From: Microcoleus sp.
Lineage (GTDB): Bacteria > Cyanobacteriota > Cyanobacteriia > Cyanobacteriales > Microcoleaceae
Direction of reading: 5' to 3'
NCBI GenBank assembly: GCA_042408215.1
Contig: JAYFMW010000020.1
Span: 32,001-96,000 of the forward strand
Length of the DNA stretch: 64,000 nt
Shown: positions 17,888 through 50,807 of the stretch, one piece after another
Numbering within the stretch: the stretch's first letter is position 1
Layout of the letters: each line of letters opens with the position of its first letter
Position numbers and translations under genes: made by a program
Notes under the pieces: model-generated
Databases searched by the model: none
Told to the model about the DNA's origin: nothing
Seen by the model: only the letters and a program-made list of their open reading frames with translations

Positions 17888-18270
17888 TCAGTAGTCAGTA
17901 GTCAGTAGTCATTAGTCATTGGTCATTGGTCATTGGTCATTGGTCATTGGTCATTGGTCATTAGTCATTAGTCATTAGTTATTAGTCATTAGTCATTAGT
18001 CATTAGTCATTAGTTATTAGTTATTAGTCATTAGTTATTAGTCATTAGTCATTAGTCATTAGTCATTAGTCATTAGTTATTAGTTATTAGTTATTAGTCA
18101 TTAGTCATTAGTCATTAGTCATTAGTCATTAGTCATTAGTCATTAGTCATTAGTCATTAGTTATTAGTCATTAGTCATTAGTCATTAGTTATTAGTCATT
18201 AGTCATTAGTCATTAGTCATTAGTCATTAGTCATTAGTTATTAGTCATTAGTCATTAGTCATTAGTTATT
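17884..18270. repeat. Long heptamer array (TCATTAG/TTATTAG/TCATTGG)n, about 55 units
   Basis: Directly visible. Confidence 0.95.
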
Positions 18271-18288
18271 AGTTGGTGATAATAACCA

Positions 18289-18645
18289 ATTCCCCATTCC
18301 CCATTCCCCATTCCCCATTCCCCATTCCCCATTCCCCATTCCCCATTCCCCATTCCCCATTCCCCATTCCCCATTCCCCATTCCCCATTCCCCATTCCCC
18401 ATTCCCCATTCCCCATTCCCCATTCCCCATTCCCCATTCCCCATTCCCCATTCCCCATTCCCCATTCCCCATTCCCCATTCCCCATTCCCCATTCCCCAT
18501 TCCCCATTCCCCATTCCCCATTCCCCATTCCCCATTCCCCATTCCCCATTCCCCATTCCCCATTCCCCATTCCCCATTCCCCATTCCCCATTCCCCATTC
18601 CCCATTCCCCATTCCCCATTCCCCATTCCCCATTCCCCATTCCCA
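18289..18645. repeat. Nearly perfect heptamer array (CCCCATT)n, about 50 units
   Basis: Directly visible; ends a few bases before ATG 18651. Confidence 0.95.
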
Positions 18646-30567: not shown

Positions 30568-32542
30568 ATGAATCGATTTGACCGTCAGTTGTGGGATCGG
30601 TTTATTGCGATCGCCCAGCCTTATTTTTATCCTTTGGAGCCTGGGGGCGGCAGGACTTTTTTGGGATTAGTAGTGCTGTTGTTGATCTTTCTCTTCGCTG
30701 CAATGTTTTTTGCCGTCAGCGCTGTCTGTTTGCTAGGTCAAGCTTTTTTTCCAGAGTTTGTCAACAATATTGCGGCGGGCTTAGTTAGTTTGTTGCAAGG
30801 AATTATTAATTCGCCGGCAATTGTCATTATTGCTTTGATGCTAATTCTTCCTTTCAGCGCTTTTGTCTTTTTCAAAGGCCGATTGCTCCCCCATTGGCAA
30901 TCCTGGGCTTTATTGGCTTTATTGCTGTTATTGTCCCTCTCAGTCAGCGGTCTAAATGTAATAATTAGCTACGTCAGTAACTTTTTTGATACAGCACTGG
31001 CCAAGAAAGACCAGCTCAATTATTGGAAGTATCTTTTTGTCTATGCAGGCGTCTTTGTAGTCGGCACTCCCATTGTGGTAATTTACCGCTATACCCAAGA
31101 TAAATTGGGTCTCTACTGGCGGGAGTGGATGACTAATAAGTTCCTCGAAAAGTATTTTCACAATCGGGCTTATTACGCAATCAAATCCCACCAAGAAATC
31201 GACAATCCCGACCAGCGAATTTCTGAAGATGTCAGATCGTTTACCCGGACAAGTTTGGCATTTATGCTGATCGTACTGGGAGCAATAGTTGATATTATAT
31301 CTTTCACGGGTATCCTGTGGTCGATCTCAAAAGAACTTTCGATTTTCCTGATTGTCTATGCTATTTTAGGAACCACCGCCACTCTAGTTTTTGGTCAAAG
31401 ATTAGTACCTCTGAATTTCGAGCAAATTAAAAAAGAAGCTAACTTCCGCTACGGACTGGTTCACATTCGCGACAACGCCGAATCCATTGCTTTTTATAGA
31501 GGGGAGGAGCAGGAATCATTTCAAATAAAGCAGCGATTCGTGGAAGTATTCCGCAATTTTAATTTGCTAATTGGTTGGCAGCGGAATCTGGATTATTTCA
31601 CAACTGGATACGGATATGCTGTTGTGATTATTCCGGCTTTGTTTCTGGCTCCCGCTTACTTTACCGACCAAAGCGGTCACAATCCAGTTTGGAGATATCA
31701 GTCAAGCTGGTTTTGCTTTCAGTCAGGTTTTGCGCGCTTTTTCTGTGATTGTCAACCAAATTGAACCGCTCTCGTCTTTTGCGGCTAGTATCAATCGTTT
31801 GGCTATCTTTACAGATACTCTGGAACCGGAAAGATCAGTATCTCGTACAGGAGGAACTACCATAGATATAACGGTTGATTCGCAGTTGAAACTGGAACAC
31901 GTTACTTTAGATACTCCGAAACATCAAAAGACTTTAATTAGCGATTTGTCGGTAGCAGTGCAGCCTGGTGAAGGACTGTTAATTGTAGGTCAAAGCGGTG
32001 CTGGGAAGAGTTCTTTGCTGCGGGCAATTGCGGGTTTGTGGGACTCAGGAACGGGCCGTTTGGTGCGGCCGGAACTCGGCGAAATGCTGTTTTTGCCGCA
32101 GCGTCCTTATATGATTTTGGGTAGTTTGCGATCGCAACTCCTCTACCCCAACACCAGCAGCGAGGTGGACGAGGAAAAATTGCGCGCAGTTTTGACATTA
32201 GTAAACTTAGCAGATTTGCCGGACAGATTGGGCGGTTTTGACGCAGATTTAGATTGGGCTGATGTTTTGTCTTTGGGAGAACAGCAGCGGCTGGCTTTTG
32301 CCAGATTGTTGCTAACCCAACCGCGATACGCTATTTTGGATGAGGCGACAAGTGCTTTAGATTTGAAGAACGAGCAACATTTATACGAACAGTTACAAGC
32401 AACTAAAACTACCTTTGTGAGTGTCGGCCACAGAACGAGTTTGTTGCAATATCACCAGCAGGTTTTGGAACTGTTGGGTGATGCGACTTGGCGGCTGGTT
32501 TCGGTCGAAGAATATCGCGATCGCGCGAAGGTTTTTGCCTAA
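30568..32542 (+). pseudogene. ABC transporter fused permease/ATPase (YddA/ABCD-like) with one frameshift near 31678
   Basis: IDNPDQRI, EANFRYGL...NAESIAFY; GQSGAGKS, LSLGEQQR, LDEATSALD; skipping one base gives ...DQSG-TIQFGDISQAGFAFSQVLRAFS. Confidence 0.88.
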
Positions 32543-32731: not shown

Positions 32732-34006
32732 CTAAAATCCATAGGAATAACCATCCTTTTTGTGAATAGATTTGCAATATTTATGACTAATTCCCGCTAC
32801 TCTTCCCGCCGTTGTGGCGATGTCGAACGAACCGGATGCGCGGCAAAGAATTCGTCCCACATAGGAGCCGACCTTCTTGCCTGCTGTGACGGTAGCGCTG
32901 ACAATATCGCCGGTCTGAAAACCGAAATGGATTTGCTTTCTCGACTTGTGACGAATTGGGAAGCCAAACTTATCTGTGCCGCACATTTGTCGAGTACCGT
33001 GTCCTGCTGCCTTAATTAGCAGCGGTTGAGAAGTCAGCACTTTTAATTCTTCGACTTTGCCTACACAAGCAGCATCTAACCAGTGAGTTTTAGCTAAATT
33101 TAATCGAGTGCGGTTGAACTTTGTTAGACCACCACTGCCTGTAGAAACAAGCAAGCCAGTCATACGAAGTCGGTTAAATAACGCCCAGCGAGTTGAATTG
33201 ACTGCTGCTGCGTCTTTTAAAGACCGCTTTGCTTGAGATAGAATTCGCTTCAAAATTTCTGGCTTTTTGGAGAGGAATTGCTCAATATCTTGAGTTCCCT
33301 TCCGAGTATTACAATTTTCGCAAGCAAGGCAAAGATTAGAAATACGATTAGATCCGCCTTTGGCTTTGGGATGAATGTGTTCGACTTGTAGCGGTGTATC
33401 CGTAACTCCACAATACGCGCACTTCCTATCCCATTTATTCAACAAGTATTCGCGGATTTCGTAACCACATAAAACGCCTTGCTGGTACTCCAGTCCACTA
33501 ATTTCTGGATTTTCTCGTCGTTGTAAGTCGAATCGCACAAGTTCTTGAGCAATAGAACTAATGGGAGCGACTTTCATTAATCTAGTTACCCATGTCAGGA
33601 TTGTTTCGACACGATGTTGCAAGCTTGGAGCCAGCCATCCTTTAGGGCAAGTTCTATTTAGAAATCTAGCCTTTCGATAACGAGTATGGCGATTTCTCCT
33701 GCCTCTACGCAGTGAACGGCGAGACTCCAAACAGGCTTTAATTGATTGACCTCGGTGAGTTAGTTCTGCACCAAAGATTACGTTTTCTCCTTCGACTAAT
33801 GCAATGCCCGTGGTTTGGGAGCCAGGATCTATTTTAAGAGTGATGGGTTGTTGGGATACCGTTACCTCTACTTTGAGAATTAGCGTGAATGGATACCTTT
33901 TGAAAACAGCAGCTTTGCCAGTGGTTAGCAATTTACGAGCCATTCCTGGGCGGATTGGATTGAGCGGTCGTTTTTGGGTATCAAGTACAAAAACGAAATT
34001 AGACAT
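32732..34006 (-). CDS. iscB: RNA-guided endonuclease IscB
   Basis: PLNP (PLMP), RuvC-I IDPGS, Arg-rich helix RRSLRRGRR, RuvC-II ELVRFD, HNH CAYC...VEHIHP...N...CENCN, RuvC-III HWLDA; GGAGG RBS before ATG 34006. Confidence 0.95.
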   Translation of the reverse strand: MSNFVFVLDTQKRPLNPIRPGMARKLLTTGKAAVFKRYPFTLILKVEVTVSQQPITLKIDPGSQTTGIALVEGENVIFGAELTHRGQSIKACLESRRSLRRGRRNRHTRYRKARFLNRTCPKGWLAPSLQHRVETILTWVTRLMKVAPISSIAQELVRFDLQRRENPEISGLEYQQGVLCGYEIREYLLNKWDRKCAYCGVTDTPLQVEHIHPKAKGGSNRISNLCLACENCNTRKGTQDIEQFLSKKPEILKRILSQAKRSLKDAAAVNSTRWALFNRLRMTGLLVSTGSGGLTKFNRTRLNLAKTHWLDAACVGKVEELKVLTSQPLLIKAAGHGTRQMCGTDKFGFPIRHKSRKQIHFGFQTGDIVSATVTAGKKVGSYVGRILCRASGSFDIATTAGRVAGISHKYCKSIHKKDGYSYGF

Positions 34007-34019
34007 AAAGTCCTCCATT

Positions 34020-34326: not shown

Positions 34327-35979
34327 TTGACTACTCAGATTCCTCAGAACTTTGTGCAAACGATCGCCAAAGAGCGCGCAGTCACAGATGCCGAGTTAGA
34401 AACTGTGTTTATGGCTCTCGACGGTCAAACTACGGCGAAAATCGCAACCAAGCTTGGGATTAGCGATATTGCGGTTCGCAAAAGACTCGGCGAGGTTTAC
34501 AAAAAATTTCAGATTGGGGGGAACGGTCCTGGAAAGTTGTCGGAATTGAGACATCAGTTACTGTTTTTATACCAAACCGAGTCGGGAGCGAGGGATTTTA
34601 TTCCCAGAGGTAGAGGAGTTTTATCCAAGATTGCGATCCTCTCCGAGGGCTTCGCTAACGGACACCGACAACAAGATTGGGGCGAAGCACCAGATGTTTC
34701 GGTTTTTTACGGACGGAATGAAGAATTAACTACTTTAAAACAGTGGATTGTATCAGATAATTGTCGGTTGGTGGCGCTACTGGGTTTGGCTGGCTGCGGC
34801 AAAACAACTCTCGCGGTGCAATTGGCCTCACAGATCAAGCATGAGTTTGATTTTGTGATTTGGCGCTCTTTGCGATCGACACCTTCTGCACAAGACTTTT
34901 TAACTAACTTAATTCAAGTTTTTTCCAACCAACAAAAACCCGATTTGCCGCTCGACCTCAACGGCAAAATATCCCGGCTGGTTGAGTATCTGCGTTTTTC
35001 CCGCTGTCTGCTGATTTTCGACGATTTTGAAGCAATTTTGCAGCCATCAGAGTTAGCGGGACACTACCGCGAAGGCTACGAGGGATATAGAGAGTTAATC
35101 CTGCGGCTCGCCGAGGTAAATCACCATAGCTGTTTGGTCCTAGTTAGTTCGGAAGAACCGACAGAATTGGCTTTGCTAACCGCCGAAAAAGTGCGCTGTT
35201 TAAAACCTGCTATTTCCCCGGAAATTGCGCGGTATATTTTCCAAGAAAAAGGTTTATCAGCTAAAGATAAAGATTGGAAAATATTGATGGCGCGGTACGG
35301 AGGAAATCTGTTAGCGTTGAAAATTGTGGCGGCAACGATTCACGATTTTTTCGAGGATAATGTCTTTAAGTTTTTGGAAGCAACGGCATTATTTATTGAT
35401 GAACGCATCAGTAATTTGCTCGCGCAGGAGTTCGATCGAATGTCGAGTGCGGAAACCGATATTGCCTACTGGTTGGCGATTGCTCAAAGTCCGATTTCCC
35501 TGGCGAAGTTGCGAGAGGATATGTTCATCAAGTCGTCGCTTTCAGATTTGCTAAAAAATCTGGATTCTTTAGGTCGTCGGTCGCTGATTGAAAAAATCCA
35601 GCCCGGGGAAACTGTTTTTATGCTTCAGCCTTTGATGGTGAAATATGTTAGCGACAGATTAGTATATCAGATTATATCTGAGGTTTTGGAGGCGATTAAT
35701 ACCCAAGGAATCGAAAAAATGCAGTTGTTGAAGACTCACAATTTTAGCACAAGTATTGCTAAAGGAAAACAAAGTAAAGAGCGTCGAAGTAATTCTATTT
35801 TAGAATTAGTTAAAAATCGCCTGCAAGTGTTGTTTCTCAAAACTACAGGTTTTGAAGAACCGCTAAATATCCTGACGAAAGTTGCCTCTGATATGGAGCA
35901 TAAATCGACCCTAGAGGTGGGATATGCTAGGGAAAATCTGGCGCAGATTATTGCCGAATTGACAAGTTATTGTAAGTAA
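34327..35979 (+). CDS. LuxR-like HTH + NB-ARC (STAND) ATPase without C-terminal sensor repeats
   Basis: IATKLGISDIAVRKRLGEVYKK; DWGEAPDVSVFYGR; Walker A GLAGCGKT; Walker B LLIFDD. Confidence 0.85.
   Translation: MTTQIPQNFVQTIAKERAVTDAELETVFMALDGQTTAKIATKLGISDIAVRKRLGEVYKKFQIGGNGPGKLSELRHQLLFLYQTESGARDFIPRGRGVLSKIAILSEGFANGHRQQDWGEAPDVSVFYGRNEELTTLKQWIVSDNCRLVALLGLAGCGKTTLAVQLASQIKHEFDFVIWRSLRSTPSAQDFLTNLIQVFSNQQKPDLPLDLNGKISRLVEYLRFSRCLLIFDDFEAILQPSELAGHYREGYEGYRELILRLAEVNHHSCLVLVSSEEPTELALLTAEKVRCLKPAISPEIARYIFQEKGLSAKDKDWKILMARYGGNLLALKIVAATIHDFFEDNVFKFLEATALFIDERISNLLAQEFDRMSSAETDIAYWLAIAQSPISLAKLREDMFIKSSLSDLLKNLDSLGRRSLIEKIQPGETVFMLQPLMVKYVSDRLVYQIISEVLEAINTQGIEKMQLLKTHNFSTSIAKGKQSKERRSNSILELVKNRLQVLFLKTTGFEEPLNILTKVASDMEHKSTLEVGYARENLAQIIAELTSYCK
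34638..34658. repeat. 21-bp SDR5-like insertion in a HIP1-like site, in frame
   Basis: GCGAT|CCTCTCCGAGGGCTTCGCTAA|CGG. Confidence 0.7.
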
Positions 35980-36105
35980 TATCATGGGCATAGGACATAG
36001 GGCATAGGGCATAGGGCATAGGGCATACTATAGAACAACAAAAAAAGCGATCGCCCTTGATGACTGCGATCGCCCAATGCTCAACAAAAACAGAGTTTGA
36101 TAAAA

Positions 36106-37836
36106 TTATTTGAAAATGCCCAAAACTGATGCAGATTCAGACCCTGTAATTTTACCCAAAGCAGGCGCTCTTTGAGCCTGTGCAATTTGGGGAACCAAAA
36201 TTCCCTTCGCATAAATCCGAGGATTTTCCTGAGCAATTTGGATGTAAGATTGCCGGACTTCTGCGTTCACTGCGACAGTCTTTGCATCATAAACTTGCAT
36301 CGCCATCTTAGGATAGAAACCAATACCAACAATCGGTATCAAAAAGCAAAATGCGATCGCCACTTCGCGAGGTTGAGCATCGATAAACTTGGCATCCCCC
36401 GGCAAAACGCAACTATTACCGAAACAAACCGCTTCATCCAGATTATTTCTCTGATTCTGCAAATCTAAATCCTCGATGTCACAAGCCGCTGCGGCTCCAG
36501 AATTATAAAATAGCTGGCGCAGCATCGAGAGCAAATAAATCGGTGTCAAAATCACTCCAACCGCCGCCAGAAACACAATCACAGCGCGGAAAGAATCGCT
36601 GTAGATATCGCTAGTTGCCACACCCACAAATATGGAGAGTTCGCTAGCAAAACCACTCATACCAGGAAGTGCTAAGGAAGCCAGAGCGCCCGCCGTAAAC
36701 AAGGCAAACACTTTGGGCATAACTGTACCAATCTCGCCCATTTCATCCATAACCATTGTATGGGTGCGATCGTAAGTAACGCCAGCCAGAAAGAACAAAA
36801 CTGAGGCGATTAAACCGTGAGAAATCATTTGCAACAGAGCACCGTTGATTCCTAAGTCATTGAAAGAAGCAATACCGAGGAGCACGAATCCCATGTGAGA
36901 AATCGACGAATTCGCTAGGCGGCGCTTCATGTTCGTTTGGCCAAAGGAATTCAGCGCACCATAGATAATATTGACCACGCCGAGCACCACCATAATCGGT
37001 GCAAAGTAAACGTGTGCTTTGGGAAGAAGTTCCAAATTCAGACGAATCAAGCCGTATCCGCCCATTTTTAACAGCACACCGGCCAGAATCATCGACACGG
37101 GAGAAGATGCTTCGCCGTGCGCGTCAGGGAGCCAAGTGTGAAAGGGGAAAATAGCCAGTTTCACGCCGAAAGCAACCAGCAATCCTGCATAAAGCAGTAA
37201 TTCTAAACCCAGCGGGTAGTCTTTCAAGCCTAGTTCCACCATGTCGAAGGTGGGAGTACCTCCGCCGTAGAATGCCATTGCTAAAGCTGCGATTAAAATG
37301 AAAATTGAAGCGCCTGCGGTATAAATCAAGAATTTGGTAGCTGCGTAGCGGCGGTTTTGGCCGCCCCAAATCGAGATTAGCAGGTAAACCGGAATTAGTT
37401 CTAGTTCCCAGACAATGAACAGTAGCATGATGTCTTGGGCGACGAAGACTCCTATCTGTGCGGAGTACATCACCAGCATCAGGAAGTAGAAAAGTCGTGG
37501 TTTGCGATCGACTTCCCAGGCTGCAAAGATTGATAGCGTCGTCACCAATCCCGCCAACAGTACCAGCGGGACTGACAATCCGTCAACCGAAACAGACCAG
37601 TTGAGGCCTAAAGAAGGTATCCAGGGATATTGTTCTACGATTTGGAAAGTAGAGATGCTCGGATCGTAATGAGTCCAAAACACCCAGCACATTAATACAA
37701 AATCTGCAATTGCGACGCCTAGGGCATACCAGCGAATGGTTTTGCCATTTGTGTCAGGCAGAAAAGGGATGGCGACGGAAGCTACGAGGGGTAGTAGGAC
37801 AATCGCGGTCAGCCAAGGAAATTGATCCGCTATCAT
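36106..37836 (-). CDS. ndhD: NAD(P)H-quinone oxidoreductase subunit 4 (NdhD1/D2 type)
   Basis: [41 protein letters not shown]. Confidence 0.93.
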
Positions 37837-38101
37837 GGGGTGAGAATAAATATTTAGTGGGAGATGACTAAAATTATAATACTAAATTTAATAAAAACTT
37901 AAGATTTATTCATAATTGTTTATTATATCGAGATCAATACGGATTTACCAATCACGAATTGCTACAAAAGTCAATTGATTTGAGATTTGAGATTTGAGAT
38001 TTGAGATTCAGGACTTACGCACAACAAATATAGCGTTTTATAGGGGCAATCTCCCTGTGGTTGCCCCCGTCTGTGGTGATGTTGCGATCGCCAATCAGCC
38101 T

Positions 38102-38848
38102 TCAATCCGGCAAATCTGGATCAACTCCCAATTCGCGCAACTTAGCCGCCAATCGTTCTGCTCTTTGGTGTTCCTGCTGTGCTCTGTGGCGTTCCTGCTG
38201 TGCTTGCTCGGAACTCCACAACAACAAATTACCTGAATTATCCCACCAACGCAGCCAGTTCATGGTTTGTCCCAACCGTTCCCCAAACCAAATCCCCAGA
38301 TACAGTTCCAGTTGTGGAATCCACACCCGCCCCTGCTCATTTGCTGAGTGTAGAACATATCGTCCATCTTGCAAATAACGGACTTCTAAACTTCTATCGT
38401 AGGGGTCATAAGTGACATAAGTAGGAACTTGAAGAATCTGTTCATAAAAGTAGAATTTGCCATAGGGGGGAGTTGCTCTGAGTGATAATTCTCCTCCCTC
38501 GGCTTCTGAGAGAAACTCCATCGCGATCGCCACATTAGCACCATCAGTATTAGGAGTATAACTACGGCGAATTACCCCTTCGGGTAGAGGATGCACTTGA
38601 GGCACATAAAACCAGTCTGGAGCTTTGACAACAGTGTTTTTATTAACAGTTGCAACTAGCCCTAAATTAGAAGCAATTAGCATTTCTGGCTGAATATACC
38701 CGGCGGCTCCGAGTGCATCAGTCAGAGCAGCCGCCAGAGCGGGTTGTTGAGTATTTTCCACAGGATCGTCGGGTAATACGAAGTTAGCGGGTAGGGGTTC
38801 CCAAGTGACGGTTGGTTTGGCTTTGATATAAGGGGCTTCGAGTACCAT
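38102..38848 (-). CDS. Uma2-family (DUF820) putative endonuclease
   Basis: KAPDWFYV, EFLS, KFYFYEQILQVPTYVTYDP and C-terminal coiled coil AERLAAKLRELGVDP. Confidence 0.85.
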   Translation of the reverse strand: MVLEAPYIKAKPTVTWEPLPANFVLPDDPVENTQQPALAAALTDALGAAGYIQPEMLIASNLGLVATVNKNTVVKAPDWFYVPQVHPLPEGVIRRSYTPNTDGANVAIAMEFLSEAEGGELSLRATPPYGKFYFYEQILQVPTYVTYDPYDRSLEVRYLQDGRYVLHSANEQGRVWIPQLELYLGIWFGERLGQTMNWLRWWDNSGNLLLWSSEQAQQERHRAQQEHQRAERLAAKLRELGVDPDLPD

Positions 38849-39128
38849 TTTATTAACCTTCAACCAGAAATGTTTGTGTAAATTTGTCTATCTTAACTCA
38901 AGTTGCTAGTTTCTGGATGGGGATGGGGCGGGTCGATCTGATTTGTCGGTGGGTAGCAAAGATTTCGGCGAACCCGCCCCTACAATTATTGATCTTCTTC
39001 CTGGGAATTGTCACTGGGATTTAAAACCTTGCCTAACATATTACCAATTAAGGGTAATTGGGCGATCGCCATTTTCATTAATTCTCAGAAAGTTTCATAA
39101 TCAGCCATTAAGCCAAACACTTTTGACT

Positions 39129-42100
39129 TTAAATCGATTTGTCTTCTCTTGCTTGCTTGTGACGGAAATATTCGCGGATGGCGTTAATACCTTGTTCTGC
39201 AATTTCAATTGGGGGATCTTCGAGGGGGTTGTTCGTTAAATCAAGTGCGGATAAATTGGTGAGACGGGTGATAGATTCTGGTACGCTTGTCAGTCCGTTG
39301 TTCCATAAAGCAAGTTGGGATAAATTGGTGAGACGGGAAATAGTTTCTGGTACGCTTGTCAGTCCGTTGTTCCATAAAGCAAGTCTGGATAAATTGGTGA
39401 GACGGGTGATTGATTCTGGTACGCTTGTCAGTTCGTTGTCACTTAAATCAAGTGTGGATAAATTGGTGAGGCGGGTGATAGTTTCTGGTACGCTTGTCAG
39501 TCCGTTTCCACCTAGATTAAGATAGGATAAATTGGAGAGACGGGTGATAGATTCTGGTACGCTCGTCAGTTGGTTGTAACTTAAAGAAAGTGCGGATAAA
39601 TTGGTGAGACGGGTGATAGATTCTGGTACGCTCGTCAGTTTGTTGTTCGTTAAATCAAGTGCGGATAAATTGGTGAGACGGGCGATAGATTCTGGTACGC
39701 TCGTCAGTTTGTTGTTACTTAAATTAAGTCTGGATAAATTGGAGAGACGGGAGATAGATTCTGGTACGCTTGTCAGTTGGTTACTATCTAAATTAAGATC
39801 GGATAAATTGGTGAGACGGGTGATAGATTCTGGTACGCTCGTCAGTTTGTTGCCATATAAAGAAAGTGCGGATAAATTGGTGAGATGGGAGATAGATTCT
39901 GGTACGCTCGTCAGTTGGTTCCAACTTAAATCAAGTGTGGATAAATTGGTGAGACGGGAGATAGATTCGGGTACGCTCGTCAGTTTGTTGCCATATAAAT
40001 TAAGATAGGATAAATTGGTGATACGGGTGATAGATTCTGGTACGCTCGTCAGTTTGTTGTTCGTTAAATCAAGTGTGGATAAATTGGTGAGACGGGTGAT
40101 AGATTCTGGTACGCTTGTCAGTTTGTTGAAACTTAAATTCAACTTTTCCAACCATTCCAACTCAAACACCTCGGTCGGAATTTCGGTTAATGAATTACTC
40201 CTCAAATCTAATTCAGTGAGGCGTTGTTCCTTGACTCGTTGAATTAATCGGAAATATTTACGAATCGCGTTAATACCTTGTTTTGCAATTTCAATTGGGG
40301 GATCTTCGAGGGGGTTGCTACCTAAATCAAGTGTGGATAAATTGGTCAGACAGGTGATAGATTTTGGTACGCTCGTCAGTTGGTTGTTACTTAAATCAAG
40401 TTTGGATAAATTGGTGAGACGGGTGATAGATTCTGGTACGCTCGTCAGTTGGTTACTACCTAAATAAAGTTCGGATAAATTGGTGAGATGGGAGATAGAT
40501 TCTGGTACGCTCGTCAGTTGGTTCCAACTTAAATCAAGTGTGGATAAATTGGTGAGACGGGTGATAGATTCTGGTACGCTCGTCAGTTGGTTGTCATATA
40601 AAGAAAGTGCGGATAAGTTGGTGAGATGGGAGATAGATTCTGGTACGCTCGTCAGTTTGTTGTTACTTAAATAAAGTTCGGATAAATTGGTGAGACGAGA
40701 GATAGATTCTGGTACGCTCGTCAGTTGGTTGTTACTTAAATCAAGTTCGGATAAATTGGTGAGACGGGTGATAGATTCTGGTACGCTAGTCAGTTGGTTT
40801 TCAACTAAATAAAGTTCGGATAAATTGGTGAGATGGGAGATAGATTCTGGTACGCTCGTCAGTTGGTTGCCGCTTAAATCAAGATAGGATAAATTGGTGA
40901 GACGGGTGATAGATTCTGGTACGCTAGTCAGTTGGTTGCCACTTAAAAAAAGTATGGATAAATTGGAGAGACGGGTGATAGATTCTGGTAGGCTCGTCAG
41001 TTGGTTGTCACTTAAAGAAAGTGCGGATAAATTGGTGAGACGGGTGATAGATTCTGGTAGGCTCGTCAGTTGGTTGCGAGTTAAATCAAGACCGGATAAA
41101 TTGGTGAGACGGGTGATAGATTCTGGTACGCTCGTCAGTTGGTTGCGAGTTAAATCAAGATAGGATAAATTGGTGAGACGGGTGATAGATTCTGGTACGC
41201 TAGTCAGTTGGTTTTCAACTAAATAAAGTTCAGATAAATTGGAGAGACGGGTGATAGATTCTGGTACGCTCGTCAGTTGGTTGTTGCTTAAATTCAACTT
41301 TTCCAACCATTCCAACTCAAACACCTCGGTCGGAATTTCGGTTAATGAATTACCGCTCAAATCCAATTCAGTGAGGCGTTGTTCCTTGACTCCTTGAATT
41401 AATCGGAAATATTTACGAATCGCCTTAATACCTTGTTTTGCAATTTCAATTGGGGGATCTTCGAGGGGGTTGCTACCTAAATCAAGTTTGAATAAATTGG
41501 TGAGACGGGTGATAGATTTTGGTACGCTCGTCAGTTGGTTGTTACTTAAATCAAGTTTGGATAAATTGGTGAGACAGGTGATAGATTTTGGTACGCTCGT
41601 CAGTTGGTTGTTACTTAAATCAAGTTTGGATAAATTGGTGAGACGGGTGATAGATTCTGGTACGCTTGTCAGTTGGTTACTACCTAAAAAAAGTGTGGAT
41701 AAATTGGTGAGACGGGTGATAGATTCTGGTACGCTTGTCAGTCCGTTTTCGCTTAAATCAAGTGTGGATAAATTGGTGAGACGGGTGATAGATTCTGGTA
41801 CGCTTGTCAGTTGGTTACTACCTAAAAAAAGTGTGGATAAATTGGTGAGACGGGTGATAGATTCTGGTACGCTTGTCAGTTGGTTACTACCTAAAAAAAG
41901 TGTGGATAAATTGGTGAGACGGGTGATAGATTCTGGTACGCTTGTCAGTTGGTTGCCCATTAAATAAAGATAGGATAAATTGGTGAGACGGGTGATAGAT
42001 TCTGGTACGCTTGTCAGTTGGTTGCTACCTAAATCAAGTGTGGATAAATTGGTGAGACGGGTGATAGATTCTGGTACGCTCGTCAGTTGGTTGTTATATA

Positions 42101-42788
42101 AATAAAGTTCGGATAAATTGGAGAGACGGGTGATAGATTCTGGTACGCTCGTCAGTTGGTTGCCACTTAAATTAAGTTCGGATAAATTGGTGAGACGGGT
42201 GATAGATTCTGGTACGCTCGTCTGTTGGTTGCCACTTAAATTAAGTATGGATAAATTGGTGAGATGGGAGATAGATTCTGGTACGCTCGTCAGTTGGTTG
42301 CGACTTAAATTAAGTATGGATAAATTGGTGAGATGGGAGATAGATTCTGGTACGCTCGTCAGTTGGTTGTTCGTTAAAAAAAGTTTGGATAAATTGGTGA
42401 GATGGGAGATAGATTCTGGTACGCTCGTCAGTTGGTTGTCACTTAAAAAAAGTTCGTATAAATTGGTGAGACGGGAGATAGCTTCTGGTACGCTTGTCAG
42501 TTCGTTGTCACTTAAATCAAGTGTGGATAAATTGGTGAGACGGGTGATAGATTCTGGTACGCTTGTCAGTTGGTTGCTACCTAAATCAAGTGTGGATAAC
42601 TTGGTGAGACGGGTGATAGATTCTGGTACGCTCGTCAGTTGGTTGCCACTTAAATTCAACGTTTCCAACCATTCCAACTCAAACACCTCGGTCGGAATTT
42701 CGGTTAATGAATTATTCATCAAATCTAATGCAGTGAAGCGGTGTTGCTTGACTTGTTGAATTTTTTGGCGAATTTCGTCTGTCATCAT
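39129..42788 (-). CDS. Stand-alone leucine-rich-repeat protein, three capped modules, about 50 x 23-aa repeats
   Basis: LTSVPESITRLTNLSxLxLxxNQ repeats; N-cap LTEIPTEVFELEWL and C-cap NPLEDPPIEIAKQG each occur three times. Confidence 0.95.
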   Translation of the reverse strand: MMTDEIRQKIQQVKQHRFTALDLMNNSLTEIPTEVFELEWLETLNLSGNQLTSVPESITRLTKLSTLDLGSNQLTSVPESITRLTNLSTLDLSDNELTSVPEAISRLTNLYELFLSDNQLTSVPESISHLTNLSKLFLTNNQLTSVPESISHLTNLSILNLSRNQLTSVPESISHLTNLSILNLSGNQQTSVPESITRLTNLSELNLSGNQLTSVPESITRLSNLSELYLYNNQLTSVPESITRLTNLSTLDLGSNQLTSVPESITRLTNLSYLYLMGNQLTSVPESITRLTNLSTLFLGSNQLTSVPESITRLTNLSTLFLGSNQLTSVPESITRLTNLSTLDLSENGLTSVPESITRLTNLSTLFLGSNQLTSVPESITRLTNLSKLDLSNNQLTSVPKSITCLTNLSKLDLSNNQLTSVPKSITRLTNLFKLDLGSNPLEDPPIEIAKQGIKAIRKYFRLIQGVKEQRLTELDLSGNSLTEIPTEVFELEWLEKLNLSNNQLTSVPESITRLSNLSELYLVENQLTSVPESITRLTNLSYLDLTRNQLTSVPESITRLTNLSGLDLTRNQLTSLPESITRLTNLSALSLSDNQLTSLPESITRLSNLSILFLSGNQLTSVPESITRLTNLSYLDLSGNQLTSVPESISHLTNLSELYLVENQLTSVPESITRLTNLSELDLSNNQLTSVPESISRLTNLSELYLSNNKLTSVPESISHLTNLSALSLYDNQLTSVPESITRLTNLSTLDLSWNQLTSVPESISHLTNLSELYLGSNQLTSVPESITRLTNLSKLDLSNNQLTSVPKSITCLTNLSTLDLGSNPLEDPPIEIAKQGINAIRKYFRLIQRVKEQRLTELDLRSNSLTEIPTEVFELEWLEKLNLSFNKLTSVPESITRLTNLSTLDLTNNKLTSVPESITRITNLSYLNLYGNKLTSVPESISRLTNLSTLDLSWNQLTSVPESISHLTNLSALSLYGNKLTSVPESITRLTNLSDLNLDSNQLTSVPESISRLSNLSRLNLSNNKLTSVPESIARLTNLSALDLTNNKLTSVPESITRLTNLSALSLSYNQLTSVPESITRLSNLSYLNLGGNGLTSVPETITRLTNLSTLDLSDNELTSVPESITRLTNLSRLALWNNGLTSVPETISRLTNLSQLALWNNGLTSVPESITRLTNLSALDLTNNPLEDPPIEIAEQGINAIREYFRHKQAREDKSI

Positions 42789-42891
42789 TTTTCTGTCCCC
42801 AAATATCTTTAAATATTACACTAAATGGTAAATATCACCGATCGAGCTAAGATTGATCTTAACCCGCCCATACCCGAACTCAGACCCCTCC

Positions 42892-43692
42892 ATGACACCC
42901 GATGTTTCCCCCGGAGCCACTTCCGCCCCCGCCCCTCAAACAACACCCGAAGTCAGCCTCGATATGCAAGTCCGTCTTAAAACAGAAGATGGACAGCTAC
43001 TGCTGCTACTCCCCTCAGAAACTAACACCAGTGAAACACCAACAGCGGCGGCTTCCACTTGGACTGAACTTTGGCAACAGCTAAAAGTTAGGCTAAATGC
43101 AGGAGAAAGGTTTTGGCAGCCCAATGCCGAAGTACAATTGATGGCGAGCGATCGCCTTTTAGATATTCGTCAACTGCAAGACATCGCCGAAGCCCTATCG
43201 GAAGTCGAACTTCAACTAAAACGAGTCCATACCAACCGCCGTCAAACAGCCGTTGCCGCAGCCACCGTCGGCTATTGTGTAGAACAGCAGCCTCCTGTTT
43301 CAACCCTCACTAAAGCCCCCGCAGCCAAACCGCAATCCCTCGCGGAACCTTTATATTTGCAGATGACAGTGCGATCGGGCGTAGAAATTCGCCATCCGGG
43401 CACCGTCGTACTTTTGGGAGATGTCAATCCTGGCGGCGCAGTCATCGCCGGAGGCGATATCCTGATTTGGGGCCGTTTGCGAGGCGTCGTTCATGCTGGT
43501 GCTGGCGGCAACACCAAAAGCGTGATTATGACCTTGCAGATGGAACCGATGATGATTAGGATTGCTAAATATGTTGCCAGAGGCCCAGAAACCCCGCCCG
43601 CTCAGTTTTTCCCGGAAGTCGCCTACGTGACACCTCAAGGGATTCGGATTGGCAGAGCTTCTGATTTTGACAAAACGCAGTTGATGGGTTAG
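42892..43692 (+). CDS. minC: Septum site-determining protein MinC
   Basis: TVRSGVEIRHPG...GDVNPG...GRLRGVVHAG; upstream of minD. Confidence 0.95.
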   Translation: MTPDVSPGATSAPAPQTTPEVSLDMQVRLKTEDGQLLLLLPSETNTSETPTAAASTWTELWQQLKVRLNAGERFWQPNAEVQLMASDRLLDIRQLQDIAEALSEVELQLKRVHTNRRQTAVAAATVGYCVEQQPPVSTLTKAPAAKPQSLAEPLYLQMTVRSGVEIRHPGTVVLLGDVNPGGAVIAGGDILIWGRLRGVVHAGAGGNTKSVIMTLQMEPMMIRIAKYVARGPETPPAQFFPEVAYVTPQGIRIGRASDFDKTQLMG

Positions 43693-44038
43693 TGATGATT
43701 GGTTAGTTGTTATTGGTTAGTTGTTATTGGTTAGTTGTTATTGGTTAGTTGTTATTTTAGTCCTGGACGCAACTGGCACACGACCATTGACTTGTAGGGT
43801 GCGTCAGACTTTCGTTATAGGACGAGGATCGAGGCTTTGGGATAGTAGAGCACCTTACTAATTGTGACACTTGGCCTTAGTCCTGTATTTGTTAGTTGTT
43901 ATTTTAGTCCTGGACGCATCAAAACCAAAGAAACCGGGTTTTTGCCGTTTTGCGGTCTGTAGCGCGTCTTATCGCCAAAAAACCCGGTTTCTGACCACCC
44001 GTGCGTAAGTCCTATAAAATCTAAATCTAAAATCGCTT

Positions 44039-46656: not shown

Positions 46657-48030
46657 ACCGCCGGGAAGTCCCCCGCTCTACCTGTACCCAGGTGAGCGGT
46701 GGGATGATAGGCCCGTCAACGTAGGTACGGAGTTGACCAAATCTTTTTTCAGTATTATGTAGTAATATATTCAGACCAGGAGGTGATCTTGAGTGCTACA
46801 TCAAGCTGTACAAGTCCGTCTGTATCCAACTGCATTGCAAGAAGCACTACTAGCCCAAACATTTGGATGTTCGCGTTGGTGGTGGAATTATGCCTTAAAT
46901 AAATCCATTCAGGTTTATCAAGATACGGGTAAAGGGCTGGGACAGGTAGCACTCAACGCCCTACTACCTAAGCTCAAAAAAGCCGAAGATACGCTGTGGT
47001 TAGCTAATTGTTACAGTCAAGTTTTACAAGCTACAACACTTAATTTAACCACTGCTTACAAAAACTTTTTTGAGCAACGTGCAGGTTTCCCTAAGTTTAA
47101 ATCTAAACATGGCAAACAGTCAATTCAATATCCTCAAAACGTCAAAATTGTTGATGGTAATGTCAAACTTCCTGGCAAGATTGGGATAGTCAAAGCCAAA
47201 ATACATAGACTAATTGAGGGGAAAATCAAGACTGTAACTATTAGTAAAACACCATCAGGCAAATATTTGGCATCTATCCTAACAGAAATTGAAGGGGAAA
47301 ATCAAAATGTTTCAGAAGGTAAGATTTACGGTATTGATTTAGGGTTAAAACACTTTGCTGTTGTCACTGATGGCGAAAATGTTTCTAAATACGATCATCC
47401 TAAACACCTTGCTAAACATGAGAAAAATCTCAAACGCAAACAGAAAAAATTAGCGCGTAAACACAAAGGGAGTAAATCCAGAAATAAATATCGTCAAGTT
47501 GTTGCCACATTGTACGAACGAGTTAGTAATTCCCGGCAAGATTTTCTACATAAACTTAGTCATAAGTTGGTCAGCGATAGCCAAGCTGTTATAGTAGAGA
47601 ATCTTAATGTCAAAGGCATGGTTCGTAATCATAAATTGGCGAAGGCAATATCTGATGCAGGATGGGGAACTTTCACAAATTTCTTGGCTTACAAACTAGA
47701 ACGAAAAGGCGCTAAGTTAGTTGAGATTGATAGATGGTTTCCCAGTTCCAAACTCTGTTCTAATTGTTTCTATCAAGTCAGTGAGATGCCATTAGATGTT
47801 CGTGAATGGACTTGTCCTAATTGTGGTACTGATCGTGACCGAGATGGAAACGCAGCTATCAATATTAGAGCAGAGGGGATCAGAATGCTAAAGACGGATG
47901 GTTCAGCCGTTTCTGCTGTAGGAGGGGATGTCAGACCCCATCTTGGGCGAAAGTCTAAGATGGGGCATTCGCCTGTGAGTACAGAAGCCGACACTGTACT
48001 TGGTACTCCAAGTCAGTGTGGGTAGTTCAC
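46657..48030 (+). mobile_element. IS200/IS605 element with tnpB only (IS891/IS1341-like)
   Basis: Preceded by TTAC (46653-46656), left-end hairpin, right end GTAGTTCAC. Confidence 0.75.
46793..48025 (+). CDS. tnpB: RNA-guided endonuclease TnpB, apparently intact
   Basis: RLYPT HTH, GIDLG, IVENL, CSNC/CPNC zinc ribbon, DRDGNAA. Confidence 0.93.
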   Translation: MLHQAVQVRLYPTALQEALLAQTFGCSRWWWNYALNKSIQVYQDTGKGLGQVALNALLPKLKKAEDTLWLANCYSQVLQATTLNLTTAYKNFFEQRAGFPKFKSKHGKQSIQYPQNVKIVDGNVKLPGKIGIVKAKIHRLIEGKIKTVTISKTPSGKYLASILTEIEGENQNVSEGKIYGIDLGLKHFAVVTDGENVSKYDHPKHLAKHEKNLKRKQKKLARKHKGSKSRNKYRQVVATLYERVSNSRQDFLHKLSHKLVSDSQAVIVENLNVKGMVRNHKLAKAISDAGWGTFTNFLAYKLERKGAKLVEIDRWFPSSKLCSNCFYQVSEMPLDVREWTCPNCGTDRDRDGNAAINIRAEGIRMLKTDGSAVSAVGGDVRPHLGRKSKMGHSPVSTEADTVLGTPSQCG

Positions 48031-49374: not shown

Positions 49375-49687
49375 TAGCGCCAAACTGAAGGGTAGAGAAC
49401 ATCAGCCTCTACCCTTTGCCTTGTATGTTAATTTATGTGTGTTTTTAATTTATTTCGGTCGATCGCCCGCACGGAAAATCCCTTGTTTGATTTTTCGATT
49501 CTCCACCCTGGGGGTGCGACTACATCTGGCTGATTGTTAAGTTTGTTTGGGGTATTGTCCAGGACGTAAATTACCCAGACATTCTGGACTTTTTCCGACC
49601 CAGCTACGAGAACACATTTATAGTTGATTGACAAACCATAATACAAGCGTTAAACTGATATTAGCATTCGTTTTGACAGTTTATAAA

Positions 49688-50807
49688 ATGCTGCTGGGTT
49701 TTAAAACCGAACTTAACCCCAACAATAAACAACGTACTTTGCTGGCTAAATCAGCAGGGGTAGCTAGATATGCTTACAATTGGGGTCTTCAAATTTTAAT
49801 TACCAGCTTAGAACATCATAAAACTCAACCAGAAAACCAAATTAAATTACCAACTGCCATAGATCTGAATAAGCGATTTACGGCTGAGGTAAAATCAGAA
49901 AACCCTTGGACTTATGAAGTGTCGAAAGGATGTCATAATTATGCTACCCGCCATGTTAGAGATGCTTTAAACAATTTCTTTAAACAACCAGAAAAGGGAT
50001 TTCCCAACTTCAAAAAGAAAGGATTTCACGATAGTTTTACTTGTGATGGTTCCACAATAGTCTGTTCTACTTGGGTAAAGATTCCTAATATTGGTAAGGT
50101 CAGAACTTTTGAAAAATTACCAGCTTTGGGAAAAGTTAAAAGTTTCACCATTAGTAAAAAAGCAGATAAGTGGTTTGTAAGTTTCAAGAGAGAAACACCG
50201 TCACAGCCAATGAGAGAACCAATCGAAGTTGTAGGTGTTGATCAGGGAATTAAATCACTAGCAACTTTAAGCAATGGTCAAGTTATCCCCAATATAAAAC
50301 CTCTGAAAGCGGCTCTAGGAAGACTTAGACAATTATCTCGGTCACTTAGTCGCCAGCAAAAAGGAACCGCATCTTATCAGGAAGCAAAGATTAAATTAGG
50401 ACGGTTTCATTCGCACGTTGCGAATATCAGAAAAGACTATCTGCACAAATTAACTACATGGCTGGCCAAAACTTTTGATGCGATCTGTATTGAAGATTTA
50501 AACGTTAAAGGGATGCTGAAAAACCCTAAATGAGCTTCGCGCTATAGCCGATTTAGGTTTGTTTGAATTCCGAAGACAGTTGGAATATAAATGCCAGTTG
50601 TATGGTTCACATTTAGTAATAGTTGACCGCTGGTATCCGTCTTCTAAATCATGTTCTAATTGTGGACATAAACAAGATTTGACTCTTGCTGATAGAGTAT
50701 ATAAGTGTGAAAACTGTGGTCATGTCCAAGATAGAGATGAAAATGCCGCCGTTAATTTAAAACACGAAGGTTTAAGAGTTTTAAAACTTTCCTTGTACAG
50801 CCCGTAG
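49688..50807 (+). pseudogene. tnpB: TnpB pseudogene (IS607-like), stop plus frameshift at about 50531-50537
   Basis: MLLGFKTELN, GVDQG, IEDLNV; KNPK-TGA then RAIADLGLFEFRRQLEYK in another frame; CSNC/CENC, DRDENAA; downstream GAAGCAGGAAG and end ...CAGAGCGG (50934). Confidence 0.85.

What the first reader, a model, noticed from the sequence alone, without database searches (positions are those of the whole stretch)
39129..42788. Three-module LRR protein with invariant framework and hypervariable binding face (VLR/antibody-like)
Seen: about 50 repeats of 69 bp in three capped modules of 19, 16 and 15 LRRs (junctions near 41400 and 40245). The framework LTSVPESITRLTNL is almost identical even at DNA level. 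The four x positions of S-x-L-x-L-x-x-N vary widely (T/E/K/I/Y/A/G/D/R/Q; D/F/N/Y/S/A; GS/SD/TN/SR/YN/MG/VE/TR/SW/WN and others). Whole variable cassettes recur at distant positions (ELYLVE x2, TLFLGS x3, KLDLSN x3, TLDLSW x2). Known: these positions form the concave ligand-binding surface of LRRs, and this cap/LRR type usually precedes Roc-COR in cyanobacterial Roco proteins; here there is no enzyme domain or signal peptide. Inference: a cytoplasmic receptor or decoy diversified by repeat shuffling under positive selection, possibly in phage or parasite defence.
Basis: partly seen in the sequence, partly recalled or inferred. Interest (0 to 1): 0.75.

Follow-up and report, generated by a model that had tools for sequence, protein, structure and literature searches.

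The report
Orphaned, tripled Roco receptor sensor
This cyanobacterial gene is the variable leucine-rich-repeat sensor of a Roco receptor that lost its GTPase switch and membrane tail and then tripled; it likely persists as a signal-less binding protein, although a slowly decaying relic is almost as likely.

Summary
Observation confirmed: a 1219-aa ORF with 50 LRRs in capped modules of 19, 16 and 15, variable at four binding-face codons. The missing enzyme is explained. The gene is a Roco (LRR-Roc-COR-membrane tail) with two internal deletions: a tail remnant follows the stop, and relative G005 holds the full Roco at this site. The genome has no COR domain. The truncated end occurs in 8 of 79 genus genomes, and independent assemblies hold three-module alleles of 48 and 51 repeats in other orders, so shuffling is real and the layout is no misassembly. 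The allele moved between species on a gene-sized tract. The hypervariability is inherited: intact Rocos are equally variable, and alleles show no excess turnover at variable codons. There are no donor cassettes, so it is not VLR-like. Selection on the fold after truncation has moderate support (not significant). Best reading: effector-less binder (0.45) versus relic (0.35). The scan noted this repeat pattern before in another cyanobacterial Roco.

The parts
39129..42788 (-). LRR-only ORF, 1219 aa, 50 repeats in three capped modules
41394..42788 (-). Module 1: N-cap helix, 19 LRRs, C-cap helix fused to the next N-cap
40239..41393 (-). Module 2: 16 LRRs and C-cap
39129..40238 (-). Module 3: 15 LRRs, terminal C-cap and a ten-residue tail across the deletion joint
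39138..39149 (-). Joint of deletion 1 (about 1.55 kb, Roc and COR removed), at a 6-base microhomology present on both sides in undeleted relatives
39097..39128 (-). Non-coding remnant of the start of the Roco tail; one extra base relative to G005 makes the present stop codon
38989..39096 (-). Non-coding remnant of the last 36 codons of the Roco tail, behind deletion 2 (about 150 bases, the hydrophobic segments); 78% identical in translation to P0003, one internal stop
39062..39069 (.). HIP1 palindrome: alleles of G011, L071 and G047 switch here to the 3' end of an ADP-ribosylglycohydrolase gene; likely 3' end of the exchanged tract
42900..42960 (.). Approximate 5' edge of the exchanged tract, in the start of minC
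42853..43692 (+). minC, divergent neighbour and conserved anchor of the slot
38102..38863 (-). Uma2-family gene, variably present neighbour

Best explanation
The gene is the LRR sensor of a Roco receptor (LRR-Roc-COR-membrane tail) that lost its switch and tail by two deletions and tripled its sensor module, and it likely survives as an effector-less binding protein that would sequester targets instead of signalling. Shown: (1) parent architecture and both deletions; (2) three capped modules; (3) repeat number and order differ between alleles in whole 69-base steps; (4) the three-module allele is 98-99% identical at its module joins in species whose flanking genes are 86-89% identical; (5) no COR domain is left in the genome. 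Inferred: repeats are reshuffled by unequal crossing-over and gene conversion between near-identical frameworks, including crossovers inside a unit; the allele moves by recombination at the minC-ndhD slot; the variable face was diversified mostly while the array served an intact receptor. Predicted: three solenoids on flexible links, each with a variable concave face. Untested: expression, ligand, and any protection against phage or other invaders. Confidence in the origin is about 0.95; the figure below is for the whole statement, including a retained binding function.
For: Origin: full Roco at the same site in G005; tail remnant behind the stop; close relatives at 71-77% identity are all Roc-COR proteins. 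Persistence: the truncated end is in 8 of 79 genus genomes and metagenome locus L071 and in 15 of 21 short protein hits, while only G005 of the 79 matched Roc-COR over its whole length. The frame is open in 6 of these 9 alleles, broken in 2, undetermined in 1. Constraint: terminal C-cap pN 0.093 against pS 0.40 (5 N, 6 S, p 0.018), while the adjoining ten-codon tail has pN 0.33; structural repeat positions give a pooled ratio of 0.28 (23 N, 66 S over five lineages), no stop in any repeat unit of eight alleles, and the multi-module alleles are as clean as intact L112. Transfer tract limited to about the gene itself; in G011, L071 and G047 the gene stands in place of most of the ADP-ribosylglycohydrolase gene that most relatives keep there. 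Fold: pLDDT 83.8, linker under 50. Parent family proposed as counter-invader receptors with rapidly evolving LRRs (PMC8195603 section 15).
Against: No excess change at variable codons between the three alleles once diversity is allowed for (0.38 v 0.33, 0.57 v 0.57, 0.45 v 0.47; intervals include zero). Whole-framework tests are not significant (29 S: 53 N, p 0.09; variants absent from Roc-bearing relatives 15: 32, p 0.33; private to three-module alleles 0: 6, one a core Leu to Gln; the Roc-bearing control is not significant either, so power is low). Fourteen of 29 synonymous variants also occur in Roc- or tail-bearing relatives, so clean repeats may be recent imports from intact alleles. Single-module alleles look relaxed (structural dN/dS 0.4-0.8) and some whole proteins have shrunk to 104-115 aa. 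The family breaks often: the C11 paralogue, L111, L114, L117 and G056. No evidence of expression, no ligand, and only a weak PADLOC hit on repeats.
Confidence: 0.45

Rival explanations
1. Near-neutral relic. Loss of a costly, possibly self-triggering Roc-COR-membrane effector was tolerated or favoured; the leftover array keeps expanding, shrinking and reshuffling by recombination, and is refreshed from intact alleles, without a function of its own.
For: Neutral-looking turnover between alleles; variability equal to intact Rocos; alleles from 104 aa to 1242 aa; 2 of 9 broken; relaxed single-module alleles; two other Roco-like LRR genes in this genome also lack Roc-COR.
Against: One truncation shared across 8 species-level genomes, with up to 12 of 70 differences in its non-coding remnant, yet no stop in any repeat unit; C-cap constraint; gene-sized transfer between species, in place of a commonly kept gene.
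Confidence: 0.35
2. Cassette reservoir. The array is kept as donor DNA from which intact Roco alleles in the population take new repeats by transformation and gene conversion.
For: Frameworks are nearly identical to intact alleles, so exchange is possible; tail-intact sequence occurs in environmental runs (run X14); cap variants are shared with G005.
Against: No intact acceptor in this genome; only 3 of 61 cassettes of the three-module alleles occur among 74 cassettes of 18 intact relatives, and no 69-base unit is shared with any Roc-bearing locus; a donor needs no open frame.
Confidence: 0.08
3. Trans-acting sensor or regulator: the protein signals through, or inhibits, a separately encoded effector.
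For: LRR domains fold back on Roc-COR and control activation in CtRoco (PMC11052575, passages); an NB-ARC protein lies 3 kb away.
Against: No COR domain in a 99.98% complete genome; the three Roc-profile hits are a 182-aa frame, a 121-aa fragment and a weak match; the NB-ARC gene is present in relatives that lack the LRR gene; no constant partner beside the allele.
Confidence: 0.07
4. Programmed diversification (VLR-like assembly from cassettes, or a diversity-generating retroelement).
For: Variation confined to a few codons; the genome has four reverse transcriptase matches.
Against: No template repeat or silent cassette: two loci by BLASTN, no other match over 18 bases to one unit; the reverse transcriptases lie on other contigs; adenine-rich framework codons are invariant.
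Confidence: 0.02
5. Misassembly of several loci into one three-module array.
For: Near-identical 69-base repeats; no reads of this genome were available.
Against: Three-module alleles on single contigs in G011 and L071, a two-module allele in G047; contigs of runs X1 and X2 bridge both deletion joints, and X2 and X6 carry the module join. The exact repeat order in G000 stays unchecked.
Confidence: 0.03

Closest known systems
Prokaryotic AP-GTPase/Roco conflict receptors, LRR-Roc-COR plus variable C-terminal effector (Kaur et al. 2021, PMC8195603, section 15 read)
   Same: Direct parent: same caps, repeats and variable face; relatives carry Roc, COR-A, COR-B and a hydrophobic tail.
   Different: Roc, COR and tail are deleted; three capped modules and 50 repeats against one C-cap and 5-14 core units matched in 18 close relatives. 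Module doubling alone is not unique: P0123 is a two-module intact Roco.
CtRoco of Chlorobaculum tepidum (PDB 6hlu, 8r4b; PMC11052575, passages; organism name recalled)
   Same: Best solved relative of the intact parent P0003 (E 6e-93).
   Different: The window protein stops at the linker helix, so it can have no GTP-driven dimer-monomer cycle.
Brown-algal ROCO genes with shuffled LRR exons (PMC3341825 and PMC11378527, passages)
   Same: [quoted passage not shown]
   Different: Those use one exon per repeat and keep Roc-COR; here shuffling is between intron-less 69-base units and the switch is gone.
Fungal NLRs with repeats of high internal conservation (PMC4986451, passages)
   Same: Homogenised repeat framework, length polymorphism, variable concave sites.
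   Different: WD, ANK or TPR repeats on a STAND NTPase with an effector; no LRR reported there.
Leptospira LRR proteins LIC11098 and LIC10831 (PDB 4u08, 4u06)
   Same: Closest fold per target length (TM 0.84 and 0.88, 42-45% identity); 23-residue repeats with no enzyme domain (recalled).
   Different: They are host-binding proteins of a pathogen (recalled); nothing here links them to this locus beyond repeat class.
[quoted passage not shown]
   Same: Capped LRR solenoid with a variable concave face.
   Different: No germline cassettes, no secretion signal or anchor, no sign of programmed assembly.

Membership tests
Roco / AP-GTPase receptor | Roc GTPase domain | tested here: not met
   No Pfam Roc hit in the protein; no Roc sequence in 36001-44000.
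Roco / AP-GTPase receptor | COR domain | tested here: not met
   None in the protein or in the genome.
Roco / AP-GTPase receptor | N-terminal variable LRR array ending in the linker helix | tested here: met
   C-cap 85% identical to P0003 over 34 residues; same variable positions.
Roco / AP-GTPase receptor | C-terminal effector in the same chain | tested here: not met
   Only a non-coding remnant of the tail follows the stop.
Roco / AP-GTPase receptor | Descent from a Roco gene | tested here: met
   Full Roco at the same site in G005; both deletion joints mapped.
Roco / AP-GTPase receptor | Counter-invader activity | not testable with these tools
   Proposed from genomics in PMC8195603; no experimental test surfaced in searches.
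Concerted-evolution repeat receptors (fungal HIC NLR, algal ROCO type) | High internal repeat identity with variable concave sites | tested here: met
   Framework piN 0.052 and piS 0.065 against piN 0.52 at four codons; strand at unit positions 3-5 in the model.
Concerted-evolution repeat receptors (fungal HIC NLR, algal ROCO type) | Repeat number and order polymorphism between alleles | tested here: met
   50, 48 and 51 repeats; 19 of 40 aligned units identical between G000 and L071, 4 of 39 between G000 and G011.
Concerted-evolution repeat receptors (fungal HIC NLR, algal ROCO type) | Ongoing positive selection on the variable sites | tested here: inconclusive
   Excess piN between repeats but no excess turnover between alleles; no codon-model test was run.
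Concerted-evolution repeat receptors (fungal HIC NLR, algal ROCO type) | Nucleotide switch and effector | tested here: not met
VLR-like assembled receptors | Donor cassettes outside the gene | tested here: not met
   only one broken paralogue, sharing no identical unit.
VLR-like assembled receptors | Clone-level rearrangement | not testable with these tools
   No raw reads of this genome were offered.
Diversity-generating retroelement target | Template repeat with adenine-specific differences and a linked reverse transcriptase | tested here: not met
Type III secreted LRR effectors (XopAE, XopAC, XopL models) | Match over the whole model, including the non-LRR part | tested here: not met
   Scores pass the cut-offs only by summing 9-12 LRR stretches; best stretches cover about half of each model or less.

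The most novel reading that the evidence does not exclude
A bacterial immune receptor has turned into a stand-alone, multivalent intracellular binder: having shed its GTPase switch and membrane effector, it tripled its variable sensor, keeps reshuffling it, and spreads between species because it neutralises phage or competitor proteins by sequestration without killing the cell.
Probability: 0.3. Interest if true: 0.75.

Novelty: new variant of a known kind. Interest (0 to 1): 0.42.

Why it matters
If the truncated protein protects by binding alone, it would be a bacterial case of a receptor turning into a decoy, and a way to get at the unknown ligands of bacterial Roco LRRs with a soluble, effector-free bait. 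Even as a relic, the slot gives matched natural alleles (full Roco, LRR plus tail at a paralogous site, and LRR-only with one, two or three modules) and a dated series for measuring how fast repeat shuffling rewrites a binding face. The diversification pattern itself is already known from algal ROCO and fungal NLR genes.

Tried and rejected
Donor cassettes, template repeat, DGR: none. Roc-COR partner in trans: none. Metagenome scan for the module join: 13 loci, of which only L071 holds the gene; the other 12 had no LRR frame and were dropped as chance matches. Ongoing selection on variable codons between alleles: no signal. Whole-framework S/N test: not significant, also not in the control set. 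The expected-stop figures are inflated by changes shared between repeats, so they are not used as a p-value. Expression: the one RNA run laid (X14) has a contig over 38922-39098 that goes on with nine letters of the tail-intact allele and no cover over 39120-39270; contigs cannot show absence, and RNA runs X17-X19 stayed unexamined. Small-share runs were not used. Promoter scan: nothing above chance. PADLOC: no match for the intact parent, one weak repeat match for the window protein. ESM Atlas: no usable hit for the parent's tail, so its effector class rests on hydropathy alone (two stretches above 2.2). NCBIfam effector names: summed repeat scores. Cluster membership of the close Roco proteins could not be looked up. 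The G047 row is empty and was not used. Literature: searches surfaced no paper on an LRR-only Roco derivative in cyanobacteria; the library is partial and the source-data files of PMC8195603, which may list this subfamily, were not read. PMC7159879 and the HIP1 papers were seen as search listings only.
Full report
Observation. The ORF at 39129-42788 (-) encodes 1219 residues. It holds 49 units matching LxxLxLxxN plus one N-cap repeat, 50 in all, as modules of 19, 16 and 15 separated by 40-residue cap units. In 41 core units the entropy is 2.3-2.9 bits at positions 3, 5, 7 and 8, 1.3 at position 10 and 0-0.28 at the structural positions. piN at the four codons is 0.52, piS over all codons 0.090 (ratio 5.8, bootstrap 4.6-7.1); within those four codons the ratio is 1.9. 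Identical cassettes recur ten times more often than in column shuffles, and 101 of 198 informative site pairs show four gametes, also at distances of six bases or less (recurrent mutation can add to this). A single-sequence AlphaFold model of residues 1-855 gives two regular solenoids (mean pLDDT 83.8, pTM 0.58) with strands at unit positions 3-5 and a linker under 50; its matches are LRR solenoids. That positions 3, 5, 7 and 8 line the concave face follows from established LRR geometry; surface exposure was not computed.

What it is. The close relatives (71-77% identity) among the best 120 listed protein hits are LRR-Roc-COR proteins, several named as Planktothrix. In 18 such proteins the part behind the LRRs is 616-623 residues and ends in a hydrophobic tail, while the array varies in length. 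At the window's own site, between minC and ndhD, genome G005 (minC 96% identical) carries the full Roco, with assembly gaps inside it. Behind the window's stop lie two remnants of that tail; alignment shows a deletion of about 1.55 kb at a six-base microhomology, one extra base that makes the stop, and a second deletion of about 150 bases that removes the hydrophobic segments. G065 has a matching first joint but keeps the tail DNA out of frame, which suggests the order of events (inference). The genome, 99.98% complete, has no COR domain, and its other copy of this family (C11) is frameshifted and stops before Roc. The host is a filamentous cyanobacterium, probably Microcoleus-like, judged from named homologues (P0157, P0172, L113).

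Spread. Ten of 79 genus genomes match the caps. Eight carry the truncated end, as does metagenome locus L071 and 15 of 21 short protein hits; only G005 matched Roc-COR over its whole length (four candidates scored per genome). Alleles have one module (G004, G059, G066, G071), two (G047) or three (G000 50 repeats, G011 48, L071 51); G065 is split over contigs. Six of nine frames are open, two broken, one undetermined. Between G000 and L071 (minC 98% identical) only 19 of 40 aligned core units are identical; between G000 and G011, 4 of 39. The exact order in G000 is unchecked. G000 and G011 differ at 2 and 4 of 219 bases in the module joins but are 86-89% identical in minC, minD and ndhD. The shared tract starts near 42900-42960 and ends at a HIP1 palindrome at 39062-39069, where G011, L071 and G047 run into the 3' end of the ADP-ribosylglycohydrolase gene that most relatives keep in this slot. 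Transfer is inferred from these identities; no tree test was run.

Is the variability selected now? The excess of replacements between repeats is real but inherited: intact relatives have 2.4-3.3 bits at the same positions. Between the three alleles, changes at variable and at framework codons occur at the same rate once scaled by diversity, as expected if whole units are swapped at random. This does not exclude selection, but it gives none.

Is the truncated protein maintained? For: the C-cap beside the deletion has pN 0.093 against pS 0.40 over nine alleles (5 N, 6 S, p 0.018, uncorrected) while the ten codons behind it have pN 0.33; structural repeat positions give 23 N against 66 S (ratio 0.28), mostly conservative, with no stop in any unit, and the multi-module alleles are as clean as intact L112 (shared ancestry and the unit filter inflate its p-value). 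Against: whole-framework tests are not significant, the six variants private to three-module alleles are all replacements, and half of the synonymous variants also occur in Roc- or tail-bearing relatives, so clean repeats may have been imported from working receptors; single-module alleles are relaxed (0.4-0.8); some have shrunk to 104-115 residues; the family is often broken elsewhere. Expression is not shown.

Mechanism. Shown: origin, deletions, module tripling, allele differences, absence of a switch. Inferred: recombination between frameworks reshuffles units and half-units; the allele moves between species. Predicted: three flexibly linked solenoids with different binding faces. I commit, at 0.45, to an effector-less binder that would sequester the kind of target its parent detected; a near-neutral relic stands at 0.35, a cassette reservoir at 0.08, a trans sensor at 0.07.

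Comparison. Kaur et al. describe prokaryotic AP-GTPase-COR proteins with rapidly evolving N-terminal LRRs and variable effectors as counter-invader systems (PMC8195603, section 15 read). Algal ROCO genes shuffle LRRs with four selected concave sites and show many disrupted loci (PMC3341825, PMC11378527, passages); fungal NLRs show the same repeat behaviour (PMC4986451, passages). The window protein descends from the first group but fails membership, since it has no Roc, COR or effector. It diversifies like the second and third. It is not VLR-like or a DGR target. Two-module arrays also occur in an intact Roco (P0123). Searches surfaced no description of the LRR-only, multi-module derivative; the library is partial and supplements were not read.

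Verdict. Real, explained in origin, and a new variant of a known kind. What is unusual is not the variable face but that a disarmed sensor has grown threefold and crossed species on a gene-sized tract. Interest 0.42.

Noticed in passing
G000:C11:31708-33163 (L050:2703-4164): Paralogue of the same family, about 17 repeats, frameshifted before the C-cap, with a stop just before Roc and the rest lost. G056 has, beside the same neighbouring gene, an in-frame LRR, Roc stub and membrane tail made by a different deletion.
   Followed up: partly
G000:C6:591583-592506: A third Roco-type LRR gene (307 aa, different framework) that ends without C-cap or Roc; a 121-aa Roc fragment lies alone at C8:27153.
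   Followed up: partly
window 38864-42852 slot; L033-L049, L074-L080: The slot beside minC is polymorphic in the genus: ADP-ribosylglycohydrolase (best NCBIfam match Tri1, below cut-off) in most, or Roco, LRR-only, Uma2, transposon or other genes.
   Followed up: partly
window 39062-39069; L031, L071, L074: A HIP1 palindrome marks the switch from the Roco tail remnant to the 3' end of the hydrolase gene: a possible natural HIP1-linked crossover.
   Followed up: partly
window 30568-32542: ABC transporter gene split by a frameshift near 31675; relatives have one frame of 657-660 aa. Real or an assembly error.
   Followed up: partly
window 34327-35979: NB-ARC/NACHT-type protein without C-terminal repeats, present beside ndhD in most genus relatives examined (74-80% identity).
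   Followed up: no
window 32732-34018, 46793-48025, 49628-50807: An IscB gene (NCBIfam above cut-off), a TnpB gene, and a second TnpB-like frame split in two (the last judged by eye).
   Followed up: no
window 17883-18644, 10772-11779: Two adjoining 7-base arrays of 56 and 51 copies, and 162-base and 15-base arrays in a likely surface-protein gene.
   Followed up: no
P0153, P0123: An LRR array of this family fused in frame to Uma2 (38 cluster members), and an intact Roco with two capped LRR modules.
   Followed up: no
G000:C30:82317-82916: Reverse transcriptase in a 369-aa frame, shorter than the two intron-sized ones; could be a DGR or retron enzyme, unlinked to this locus.
   Followed up: no
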